64,000 nt of DNA. It comes from Octopus vulgaris. Taxonomy: Eukaryota. The stretch is from positions 61,690,001 to 61,754,000 of the forward strand of contig OX597831.1 in the NCBI GenBank assembly GCA_951406725.2, in the 5' to 3' direction. The position numbers and the translations under genes were made by a program. The notes beneath the pieces were generated by a model. The model was not told where the DNA came from and searched no databases. It worked only from the letters and a program-made list of their open reading frames with translations. Shown here piece by piece: positions 27,448 through 48,807 of this stretch; position 1 is the stretch's first letter, and each line of letters begins with the position of its first letter.

Positions 27448-28353
27448 ATATATCTATATGGTGTTACATTTTTATCCATTTTAAAAACGAAGCAGAATTT
27501 TATAGCCTGTTGCCCTTTTCACATATGTTGGATTTACAATAGGTTCCTCAATAGTAAATTCCTTAGTATTAGTAGGTAGCCTTTGACAACCTAATGCATT
27601 TACATCTTTCCCTTCTCTAAAATAAAAAAAAGCTGTTTATTTATCTCTGTCTGACTATCTATCTCACCTTGTTTCTTTATATGTGCATGTGTGTATGTAT
27701 ACATGCATGTATACATGTAGCAGACTTTGCTAAAGAAGACCACAAGTCAGATGGTAATATAAACTCTACTATGGATCAAGTTTAGTGTCCAAGGAGAAGA
27801 ACAGTTCCTCAGATTGACTTCCATATGCAAAGTTTTAGGCACAAGGTTTGGGGTGATCAGAGACTGCAGTGGGTAACGCTTGCCAATCTGCTGTGCTGCT
27901 GGATCACAACAAACCAATATTTGTAGCTTTTATCTTTTATCTGTTTCAGTCATTAGACTGTGGCCATGCTGGGGTACTGCCTTGAAGAACTTTTGGTTGA
28001 ATGTATTGACCACAGTACTTATTTTTTGCCTTTTAAACCAACCTGGTACTTTTTCTTCTATTGTTCTCTTTTTTCTAAACTCCTAAGTTACAGGGATGTA
28101 AACAAACCAATTCTGGTTGTCAAGAGGTGCTGGGGGACAACCGCAGTAACAAAGAGAGAGATGCATACACACACACGCATATATTTTTTGTGTGCATATA
28201 TATAATGATTTTTTGGCTAATTTTGAAATTAAATCAGCAGTTTATATTTACTGTTGAGAAGACCGCGCGATTGCGGTAGATTTTGAAAATTTATAGCATA
28301 TAGACTGGAGGCTTCCTTACCATCGCCTCATGGATATATACTCGTCCTTGGCT

Positions 28354-28447
28354 TCTCTGCTGACGAGGCACACCAGTTGTAAAAAATTTAATTTAATTTA
28401 ATTAATTTGTTTACCAAAGTTTGCTGAAACTATGCATAGTCCAGAGA
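28354..28447 (+). ncRNA. Type I hammerhead ribozyme, intact catalytic core
   Basis: TCTCTG-CTGACGA-GGCA...TGCT-GAAA-CTATGCATAG-TC-CAGAGA; 6-bp stem I; stem III is the 12-nt palindrome ACUAUGCAUAGU; predicted cut after GUC at 28441. Confidence 0.85.
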
Positions 28448-28604
28448 TGAAAGGGGTAAACGTTTTTATTTCTCTTTCAATTTCAGAATTATAACTATTA
28501 GCGGTTTGAGTTTGGCTGCTCTTTCTAGTGAGTCGAATGTCCTATTATGGCCATTCCTTATATTTTTGAATATATATATGTATATATATATATATATATA
28601 TAAT

Positions 28605-33750: not shown

Positions 33751-34385
33751 ATACATATGTATATACATATGTATATATATTTCAATCACATCATTTCTTT
33801 CATGAATTTGCTCATTTCAGCTAAGTTCTTACAACAATATTCATAACATTATTTTTCCATGGCCCCTGTTGTAGCCAGTTGTTGTTCTTTCTTCTTTGTA
33901 TAGGCTGCAATTATTCATGAGATTATTAAGTGGGCTCCAGTCCAGCTAATCTTTGAAGAAATAATTAATCCAGGTAAGCGTTTGCAATCTTGTTCTAACC
34001 TTGTGAAGTGGAAGGAATGATGTGATTGCTGGATAGTGATAGTCAGGGTTCCTCTAAGCAGGATATGTTAGAAATCCTAGAGATTGGAAGAGAACACTCA
34101 AAAAATGTCCAAGATAATGTGGATAAGACATAATCAAAGTATTCAGGTACAGATGGAAGAGAAAGATATGGTCAAGAGAAGAATGGAAGTTGATAGTGAC
34201 CACTGACATTGAAGATATCTCAAAGTTTGATTGACACAACAAATAAAGTAAAGATTTACATGCACATACACATACCTACACTACATATGCACACATATAC
34301 ACAAATATACATAATATATGAATGTAAATATAAGCATATATATATTTCCTCCATCTTCCTTTTTTGGGATCTTTCATTTTCCTAT

Positions 34386-34420
34386 GTTTCTGACGAAGAG
34401 CTCCGCTCGAAACGTTAAAC
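34386..34420 (+). ncRNA. Minimal type I hammerhead ribozyme
   Basis: GTTT-CTGACGA-A-GAGC TCC GCTC-GAAA-CG-TT-AAAC within a unit of about 175 bp (34346-34520) bounded by (TA)n. Confidence 0.8.
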
Positions 34421-34518
34421 CCTCCTTCTTTCCTTCTTTCCTGAGCGTCCAATAATACTATACTTGTTCCACGTCCTCGCGTTGTGTTTTCTCTTTGTGT
34501 TTTCATGTTTGGATTAAC

Positions 34519-34553
<35 letters not shown>

Positions 34554-45708: not shown

Positions 45709-46990
45709 TTGGGTTGTCCGGAAAGTTCGTGCCGATTTTTAAAGGCAAGAAAAAGATCAGTAAATACATGCCATTACATTTTTAATCAACCAAATATGAA
45801 CCATTTTGTTGCACAATGTGTCTTCATCTTTCCTTTAACTTGAAAATACCCTCTTCCCGGAACTGAGGTGGTTTCATGGCAAAGATTCATCAAGGCATCT
45901 TTTTACATCATCCAAGGAATTGACATTTTTACCATTAAGACCATTCTGCAGAGACCTGAATAAATAGAAATCCGAAGGAGCAATATCTGGTGAATATGGA
46001 GGGTGGGTATCACATCCCAGCTGAGCTGCAACAAGTTTTGTCTGGTTCCCAAAGAAACGTGCGGTCTTGCATTATCATGTTGGGAAACAACACCCTTCTT
46101 GTTGGCCAATTCTGGACGTTTCTCTTGAATTGCTGCTTTAAACTCGTCCAGTTGTGGGCAGTATTTCTCAGAATTAATTGTCTGGTTACTTGGGAGAAGC
46201 TCATAGTAGATAATTCCTTTCCAGTCCACCCAGACACAAAGCAAGACTTTTTTAGGGTTAAGACCCGCTTTTGAGGTGGCTAAGGGTAGCTCATGTCACT
46301 TACTCCAGGATCGCTTTCTCTGAACATTTCGGTAGATAATCCATTTCTCATCACCTGTCACAATTTGCTTTTAAAAAGCGCGTTTTCATTCCGTTTATAA
46401 AGCGAATCACAGATGGAAATGCGATCCAAAAGGTTCTTCTCACTCAACTCATGTGGTACCCAAACATCGCAGCGATTTGTGTACCCAAGCTTTACCAGGT
46501 GCTCATGAACGACGACGGATTTTGATAGGTTAAGGCTTCTGTCAATTCTCGGGTTGTACAATGTGGGTTATTCTCAATTAATGACTTGATTTGGACATCA
46601 TCTGTAGTGGGTGGTCTGCCTGATCGCTCTTTATCAATGAGGCTACAATCTCCAGCTCGGAACCTTGTGAACCACTTCCATACAGTTCTTTCAGATAAAG
46701 AAACATCACCGTAAACTGCGCATATTTCTTTGGTTGCTTGTGAGGCATTTTTTCCTTTACGGAAAAAGAAAAGCATCAAGCGCTGAAAAGGAACTTTCTT
46801 ATCTTCCATTTTAAAGGGTTACAGAATCAACACACGTTATAGGAACATTAACCTTCTTCCACGAAAAATAGCTTAAGCTGTGCTCTAAACGGAGGTGTAG
46901 TCAAATCCTATTTTATGGGCTCAACCATGTTCTAAAATAAGTCGAAAGTTAAACTACTATAAATCGGCACGAACTTTCCGGACAACCTAA
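45709..46990 (-). mobile_element. Full-length mariner (DD34D, mellifera-subfamily-like), transposase pseudogene
   Basis: About 30-bp TIRs TTGGGTTGTCCGGAAAGTTCGTGCCGATTT; TA/TG flanks; MEDKKV..FRKGKNASQA, WVPHEL, TGDEKW, HDNARPH, SPDIAPSDFYLF split by frameshifts. Confidence 0.95.
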
Positions 46991-47989: not shown

Positions 47990-48807
47990 ATAGCTTTGTC
48001 ACACAACATGAAAAGCAACATACTGATAGCAGACTTAGGGTAATGAACAACGTGTCCCTTCTATGCGAAACCTATGAAACAAAGAAACATTTACAGAACT
48101 TTATGCACCGCATGCAGTTCTCTGGATTTGACCAGAAAGACAGGGTTTAGGTATACAGGGAAGCTAAAAAGAAGTTAGATAACATTGTATGTCCCGAAAC
48201 CAGTGGTACCTGCCCTAGGCACAGAAGTAAAGACTGGAATAGGATACAGAGAGTTTGTGACAAAGCAAACAAGGTGACAAGACTGACAAATATCAAACAG
48301 TGATGTTTGTAGTGGTCACAGCTCATAGAGAACTAGTCTGAAGATTTAGGAAAGCTCTGAAGGAAGCCAAACTCAATATTAAGATCGTTGAAAAGCCAGG
48401 GAGCTCCATCAAACCACAACTTTGTAGGATGTACCCCTGTGTGAATGCATGCACCAATGATAACTGCGTGGTATGTAAGATTAACCCTGGCATTAACTGT
48501 AGACTTAGAAATGTAGTCTATAGCATTAGATGCATAGAAGGTGCTTGTAAAGACAGGAACATGGTATACATGGGTGAGACATCTAGACGCATTGTGGAGA
48601 GACTTAATAGACATTTGAGACAATATGACGAAAAAACAGTCCTCCATACTCCAGCAACATGTCAAAGACCAACATGGAGGTACTCGGGGTCAACTTGCAT
48701 CTATCCGAATTTTATCCAAACACCCGAAGCACCCAACACTCAGACAAGTACAGGAGTACATCCTCATAAATGAAATATCCCCAGTACTAAATAGGAAATA
48801 TGCGTAG
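47990..48807 (+). mobile_element. PLE C-terminus with Cys-rich linker and GIY-YIG endonuclease
   Basis: C..C.NDNCVVC...NCRLRNVVYSIRC..C...VYMGETSRRIVERLNRH / SILQQH...RQVQE.ILI....PVLN; one frameshift near 48633. Confidence 0.9.

What the first reader, a model, noticed from the sequence alone, without database searches (positions are those of the whole stretch)
28354..28447. Best-preserved hammerhead, plausibly still active
Seen: all core nucleotides intact, 6-bp stem I, a 12-nt palindromic stem III able to fold as 4 bp plus a tetraloop or to dimerise, GUC cleavage triplet, and a long AT-rich stem II loop. Inference: if the + strand is transcribed as an intron, it could cleave the pre-mRNA co-transcriptionally.
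Basis: partly seen in the sequence, partly recalled or inferred. Interest (0 to 1): 0.7.

Follow-up and report, generated by a model that had tools for sequence, protein, structure and literature searches.

The report
Worn ribozyme in octopus retrozyme copy
This is a real hammerhead (self-cutting RNA) motif, but it is one slightly mutated passenger copy of a small non-coding jumping repeat found at over a hundred places in a probable octopus genome; the repeat is likely pasted by Penelope-type enzymes, and nothing shows that this copy sits in, or cuts, a host gene's message.

Summary
The hammerhead is real: core, 6-bp stem I, 12-nt palindrome and GUC site are as described, and stems co-vary across four sister families (11 of 19 pairs with double changes). 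It lies in a 384-nt partial copy (28203-28586) of a 469-nt non-coding unit (128 loci fetched), circularly permuted and ending in (TA)n. This fits a non-LTR retrozyme with Penelope-type footprints: two fixed 3' ends, and mirror-image arms that use one end each (46 of 46 classifiable junctions). It is the best hammerhead in this window but not in its family. Three changes touch it: G10.1-C11.1 became G-U (119 of 131 copies keep G-C), the first pair of a predicted loop II/stem I pseudoknot is broken, and the stem II hairpin lost a base. It is solitary, so it cannot release a monomer and has no partner in cis for the palindrome. No host exon was found in about 264 kb, so the intron idea is unsupported. 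Five of 210 copy ends start exactly at the cleavage site, a hint that the family cleaves in vivo. This scan reported octopus retrozymes with these footprints before, on other DNA.

The parts
28203..28586 (+). Partial copy (unit positions 230 to 469, then 1 to 143) of a 469-nt retrozyme-like unit; lacks only the stretch between the two fixed 3' end sites
   Evidence: 96.6% identical to the family consensus; 18 of 118 segments over 300 nt are closer
28354..28359 (+). Stem I, 5' strand (pairs with 28442-28447); a distal extension 28345-28349 / 28452-28456 is predicted
   Evidence: 5 of 6 pairs show double changes across families
28360..28366 (+). Catalytic core C3-A9 (CUGACGA)
28367..28425 (+). 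Stem II: 4 pairs with G10.1-U11.1 (family G-C; C>T at 28425), an internal loop, and an AU hairpin 28379-28414 with one base lost at about 28383
28372..28376 (+). Loop II strand of a predicted pseudoknot with 28348-28352; first pair broken here (G>A at 28372 facing C28352)
   Evidence: GCC/GGC in three families, ACC/GGU in one; duplex -7.0 (consensus) vs -3.3 kcal/mol (this copy)
28426..28441 (+). G12-A14, 12-nt palindromic stem III, C17; predicted cleavage between 28441 and 28442
   Evidence: 5 of 210 family segments begin exactly at this site
28572..28602 (.). (TA)n target into which the 3' end (site A) of the copy merges

Best explanation
This is a real type I hammerhead motif inside a single partial copy of a 469-nt non-coding repeat family, most likely a non-LTR retrozyme copied by Penelope-type enzymes, and this copy is likely a weakened passenger rather than a regulator of a host gene. 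Shown: the unit runs from cleavage site to cleavage site; copies are circularly permuted, end at two fixed sites in (TA)n, and often form mirror-image pairs with one arm from each site. Inferred: master copies give multimeric RNA, the hammerheads (helped by a loop II/stem I pseudoknot and probably by palindrome dimerisation) cut it to monomers that circularise, and a Penelope-like RT/endonuclease cuts both strands of a TA target and starts cDNA at two internal sites about 90 nt apart on the same RNA. This copy would be one arm begun at site A that ran 384 nt through the cleavage junction. It has since decayed. If transcribed on the + strand it would cut slowly or not at all, and with one ribozyme it could not release a monomer.
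For: Family: 40 scored matches at 93-100%; 73 and 96 exact pattern matches; 128 merged loci, 210 segments. 147 of 210 segments cross the cleavage junction and 49 exceed unit length; 176 of 210 3' ends fall at two sites. Of 67 head-to-head junctions, 46 join A with B, none join A-A or B-B, and 21 have one or both ends elsewhere (Fisher p 2e-12). Sister families repeat this: 9 of 11 and 10 of 10. Arms of one locus share variants at 0.020 per base against 0.005 for shuffled arms (max 0.009 in 300). Circular consensus folds at -128.7 kcal/mol, z -5.9, 0 of 100 shuffles as low. A sister family has a roughly 7-unit run between two TA tracts with 4 of 5 whole units identical. Two-site internal initiation with cleavage of both strands at AT-rich DNA is shown in vitro for a Penelope-like element (PMC11167929); inverted 5' copies, a one-sided tail and (TA)n targets are Penelope hallmarks (PMC8557442). 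Decay; the hammerhead fold has predicted probability 0.0003 here against 0.014 for the consensus (no tertiary contacts modelled).
Against: No circular RNA, cleavage or expression was shown. No autonomous partner was found: 20 loci of one GIY-YIG family share only a 23-nt motif with the unit at one locus. An uncleaved tandem transcript would also give junction-crossing copies, and repeat passes within one segment differ more often than they share variants (142 differences, 88 shared; 39 of the shared come from one locus). One sister-family junction joins two B-type ends. Activity may be better than I predict: two families carry A-A at 10.1-11.1, and an A-C mismatch at the first pseudoknot pair occurs in 4 of 20 copies of one family. 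Even the consensus hammerhead is not the predicted minimum-energy fold. Loci were partly chosen by exact patterns over the core, which inflates the share of intact cores.
Confidence: 0.75

Rival explanations
1. The copy is an active intronic ribozyme that cuts a host pre-mRNA during transcription.
For: Core intact, 6-bp stem I, 4-bp stem III, GUC. Non-canonical 10.1-11.1 is common in sister families. Long introns could hide exons beyond what was scanned.
Against: No host exon in about 264 kb. The sequence is a young multi-copy mobile unit with changes that weaken stem II and the predicted pseudoknot. It has no second hammerhead of its kind in cis. In Xenopus only 1 of 9 predicted retrozyme dimers cleaved in vitro (10.64898/2026.07.22.740005).
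Confidence: 0.07
2. The unit is the orphan terminal repeat (pLTR) of a coding Penelope-like element; tandem and permuted copies come from a linear multimeric transcript, and cleavage plays no part in mobility.
For: All insertion footprints are Penelope-like. In the anole element ribozyme mutants insert normally in vitro (PMC11167929). Retrozymes are proposed to derive from pLTRs. Most segments run through the cleavage site (147 of 210).
Against: Position 469 joins straight back to position 1 with no coding body; no common element body emerged upstream of the 71 free 5' ends (7 pairs alike up to the junction, not identified further), and the GIY-YIG frames in flanks lie away from the copies. 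The hammerhead has full stems with covariation, unlike minimal pLTR hammerheads. 5 of 210 5' ends lie exactly at the cleavage site (p 1e-4 for a preset site, 0.047 for any site).
Confidence: 0.17
3. The hammerhead-like pattern is a chance match in AT-rich repeat DNA.
For: No Rfam hit; local fold z only -1.33; loose descriptor hits 8 of 200 shuffles.
Against: 89% of cells paired and 78 double-change cells over four families, against 29-38% paired for slid controls; invariant core; unit length defined by the cleavage site.
Confidence: 0.01

Closest known systems
Metazoan non-LTR retrozymes (coral, mussel, axolotl: Cervera and de la Pena 2020, PMC7229834; vertebrates: Li, Clavereau and Pollet, bioRxiv 10.64898/2026.07.22.740005)
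   Same: Non-coding unit of a few hundred bases, low GC, one type I hammerhead per unit, tandem copies, strongly self-paired circular fold, coexistence with Penelope-like elements.
   Different: Unit is 469-490 nt (170-450 in PMC7229834, 51-972 in the preprint); most copies are dispersed, under about 1.5 units and in mirror-image pairs; stem III is 4 bp in a 12-nt palindrome; stem II carries an extra hairpin and a predicted Watson-Crick pseudoknot to stem I. Expression as a circle is not shown here.
Endonuclease-bearing Penelope-like elements and their pLTR hammerheads (PMC4209133, PMC8557442, PMC11167929)
   Same: Type I hammerhead with palindromic stem III, AT-rich or (TA)n targets, 5' truncation, inverted partner copy, two internal start sites with a tail on one end only.
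   Different: No RT or GIY-YIG frame; tail about 90 nt rather than 30-40; full rather than minimal hammerhead.
Pseudoknotted hammerheads (Perreault et al. 2011, PMC3088659)
   Same: Base pairing between stems I and II replaces non-canonical loop contacts; disrupting it cut activity 20- to over 100-fold in that paper's construct.
   Different: Here it joins an internal loop of stem II to an internal loop of stem I and is only 3-5 pairs; predicted from covariation, not tested.

Membership tests
Type I hammerhead ribozyme | Core CUGANGA, GAAA, UH around three stems with stem I open | tested here: met
Type I hammerhead ribozyme | Stems supported by covariation | tested here: met
   11 of 19 pairs with double changes in 24 sequences of four families; related sequences, so not independent events
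Type I hammerhead ribozyme | G10.1-C11.1 pair (canonical form; recalled, and called conserved in PMC2837043) | tested here: not met
   G-U in this copy; G-C in 119 of 131 copies mapped to the family consensus; A-A in two sister families
Type I hammerhead ribozyme | Loop I-loop II tertiary contact | tested here: inconclusive
   pseudoknot predicted in the family; first pair broken in this copy
Type I hammerhead ribozyme | Self-cleavage at the predicted site | not testable with these tools
   indirect, family level only: 5 of 210 5' ends at the site; none in two sister families (30-33 ends each), whose loci were chosen for whole ribozymes
Non-LTR retrozyme | Non-coding unit of a few hundred bases with one type I hammerhead, repeated head to tail | tested here: met
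   periods 469-470, 472-475, 490
Non-LTR retrozyme | Stable, highly paired circular fold | tested here: met
   z -5.9, -5.2, -4.0 for three families
Non-LTR retrozyme | Two consecutive hammerheads at the locus (criterion for an active element in the 2026 preprint) | tested here: not met
   this locus has one; 4 of 210 family segments have two
Non-LTR retrozyme | Expressed as circular monomer RNA | not testable with these tools
   only assembled contigs of unrecorded library type were available
Penelope-like element (autonomous) | RT plus GIY-YIG reading frame between pLTRs | tested here: not met
Penelope-like element (autonomous) | Inverted 5' partner copy, one-sided tail, microsatellite target | tested here: met

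The most novel reading that the evidence does not exclude
A 469-490 nt cephalopod retrozyme superfamily uses a hammerhead variant with a Watson-Crick pseudoknot between internal loops of stems I and II, an always-palindromic 12-nt stem III and, in two families, an A-A pair at 10.1-11.1. It cleaves in vivo, circularises, and is written back by a Penelope enzyme that primes both cut DNA ends at two exclusive sites on one RNA molecule, leaving a fossil record of both cleaved linear and circular templates.
Probability: 0.45. Interest if true: 0.5.

Novelty: new member of a known kind. Interest (0 to 1): 0.25.

Why it matters
For this locus, little: it is one ageing copy among well over a hundred. 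For the family, the exclusive use of two start sites and the small peak of ends at the cleavage site give a sequence-level test of the long-suspected link between animal retrozymes and Penelope enzymes. The four sister families also form a natural mutational series for the pseudoknot and the 10.1-11.1 pair. The scan has reported the Penelope footprint for other octopus retrozyme families already.

Tried and rejected
Rfam: no hammerhead family at gathering score or E<=10. RNA: no RNA holder listed. Contigs of three runs guessed to be RNA and one of unknown type cover parts of a family copy at 85% likeness, with no pile-up of ends and one back-joint in the run of unknown type; they cannot be assigned to this locus or show strand or circularity. 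No read-level test of transcription around the locus was obtained. Host gene: 121 and 62 filtered open frames in about 264 kb, and 10 picked window frames, gave only transposon-type domains plus one sub-threshold hit; 6 of the 127 frames listed were left out. Autonomous partner: the window's GIY-YIG family does not share the unit; not found. A spliced intron over the cleavage site (GT at 28379, strong AG near 28487) was considered; no joint matched it, so it is untested. Rolling-circle test by shared variants between passes: mixed. No measured rate for G10.1-U11.1 was found.

Full report
Observation. The sequence at 28354-28447 (+) is as described: 6-bp stem I, CUGACGA, a 4-bp stem II, GAA, a perfect 12-nt palindrome and C17 at 28441. 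Rfam does not score it and the local fold is unremarkable (z -1.33). A loose descriptor hit 8 of 200 shuffles. The strong evidence comes from relatives, below. A relaxed scan found one other, minimal hammerhead in the window at 34390, so 'best preserved' is fair for the window.

What it belongs to. The stretch 28203-28586 matches many other loci (40 scored at 93-100%; 73 and 96 exact pattern matches). The 156 fetched stretches merged into 128 loci with 210 segments. The unit is 469 nt from cleavage site to cleavage site, with tandem periods of 469-470. It is non-coding, and its circular fold is far more stable than shuffles (z -5.9, 0 of 100). Three sister families were reached from chance neighbours; two have units of 472-475 and 490 nt and are 72-76% identical to this one and to each other.

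Insertion footprint. 147 of 210 segments cross the cleavage junction and 49 are longer than one unit. 3' ends fall at two sites, A (unit 131-146; 90) and B (221-241; 86), and run into (TA)n, while 5' ends scatter. Of 67 head-to-head junctions 46 join A with B and none join like with like; 21 have an end elsewhere. The two arms share variants four times more than shuffled arms, in the 50 of 67 pairs that overlap enough. Sister families show 9 of 11 and 10 of 10 A+B junctions, with one B+B-like exception. This matches a Penelope-like protein that cuts and extends both strands at AT-rich DNA and starts at two internal RNA sites (PMC11167929, main text parts 1-2 of 4 read), and the inverted copies, one-sided tail and (TA)n targets of Penelope-like elements (PMC8557442, passages). 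Five of 210 5' ends lie exactly at the cleavage site, the top position (p 1e-4 for a preset site, 0.047 for any site), which would be expected from cleaved linear templates. Circular versus uncleaved multimeric template is not settled: passes within a segment share 88 variants and differ at 142, while a sister-family run of about 7 units has 4 of 5 whole units identical, which recent tandem expansion could also give. No autonomous partner was identified.

The ribozyme across families. In an unfitted alignment of 24 hand-picked sequences, 89% of cells pair and 11 of 19 pairs have double changes; slid controls pair at 29-38%. The number of pairs with double changes did not exceed shuffles (155 of 500 reached it), and the sequences are related, so this is support, not a probability. 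Stem III stays palindromic in three variants, which favours dimerisation: the duplex is -17.3 kcal/mol and the lone hairpin 0; dimeric cleavage through palindromic stem III is the known mode in animal type I hammerheads (PMC4209133, passages). The internal loop of stem II can pair with the internal loop of stem I: GCC/GGC in three families, ACC/GGU in one (counts anchored on the CC/GG, 11 copies without anchor and 15 unclassified left out). Such pseudoknots are common in hammerheads and matter for rate (PMC3088659, passages). Two families have A-A at 10.1-11.1 (25 of 27, 23 of 23).

This copy. It is young (96.6% to consensus; 18 of 118 long segments are closer) but has three changes in the ribozyme: C>T at 28425 (G10.1-U11.1), G>A at 28372 (first pseudoknot pair; -7.0 to -3.3 kcal/mol) and a lost T in the stem II hairpin. 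The first two are CpG transitions. Of 131 complete hammerheads in 108 loci, 118 have an intact core, 119 have G-C at 10.1-11.1, 58 are fully paired and 53 differ less from consensus than this one (loci were partly selected by exact core patterns, and a few sister-family copies are included). The constrained hammerhead fold costs 4.6 kcal/mol over the minimum here and 2.1 in the consensus. I found no measured rate for a G-U at this pair (passages of PMC2837043 and PMC544870), so slower cleavage is inferred, not shown. The copy has one ribozyme and fails the two-ribozyme criterion for an active retrozyme used in bioRxiv 10.64898/2026.07.22.740005 (parts 1-3 of 5 read), where 1 of 9 tested dimers cleaved.

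Host gene. Filtered open frames across about 264 kb gave only transposon-type domains. Short exons may have been missed, and transcription of the locus is untested. The intron-cleavage idea therefore has no support here but is not excluded.

Comparison and novelty. The family meets the sequence criteria for metazoan non-LTR retrozymes (PMC7229834, parts 2-3 of 6 and passages read), whose authors name Penelope-like elements as likely movers. That main text does not mention octopus or cephalopods, and searches for hammerhead+octopus+Penelope, retrozyme+cephalopod and octopus+ribozyme+repeat listed no paper on such a family (listings only). Supplements were not read; those of PMC7229834 cover more invertebrates and may include one. 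Within this scan, 140 findings hold the words hammerhead, retrozyme, octopus and Penelope, several with the same two-ended footprint; none matched this sequence. My reading was fixed before I saw them.

Verdict. A real hammerhead in an ageing, solitary retrozyme copy: new member of a known kind, interest 0.25.

Noticed in passing
window 34381-34419 (+), within about 34330-34520: Minimal Penelope-type hammerhead (CUGACGA, short stem II, 4-nt palindrome) in a short repeat that ends in (TA)n; similar sequence flanks L019.
   Followed up: partly
window 48342-48770 (+): Broken GIY-YIG fragment (Pfam E 5e-5) of a large family (150 scored of 6401 candidates); many matches show an in-frame TGA, not examined for a shared position or selenocysteine.
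   Followed up: partly
window 45906-46818 (-): Broken mariner/Mos1-type transposase.
   Followed up: no
G000:C18:61993572-61996206 (L074), about 275 kb from the finding: Cluster of tandem and inverted copies of the same family with two-ribozyme segments, interrupted by later insertions; a better test substrate than this copy.
   Followed up: partly
L232:2786-6049: About 7 tandem units of a sister family in one run between TA tracts; 4 of 5 whole units identical.
   Followed up: partly
L242 (near 780 and 1355), L066, L077, L145, window 52987: A 16-nt motif of the unit (positions about 74-89) recurs in other repeats, one of which (L242) also holds a further hammerhead-like sequence; possibly a shared recognition element.
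   Followed up: no
family alignment: A>G exceeds T>C on the ribozyme strand (25.9 vs 13.2 per 1000) but only in subfamily-diagnostic columns; absent elsewhere (8.2 vs 10.1). Weak hint of inherited RNA edits, few independent events.
   Followed up: partly
L060:6249-7379, L135:4123-5001, L087:5917-6462: Long open frames of other Penelope-like families with GIY-YIG domains; candidates to screen as movers.
   Followed up: partly
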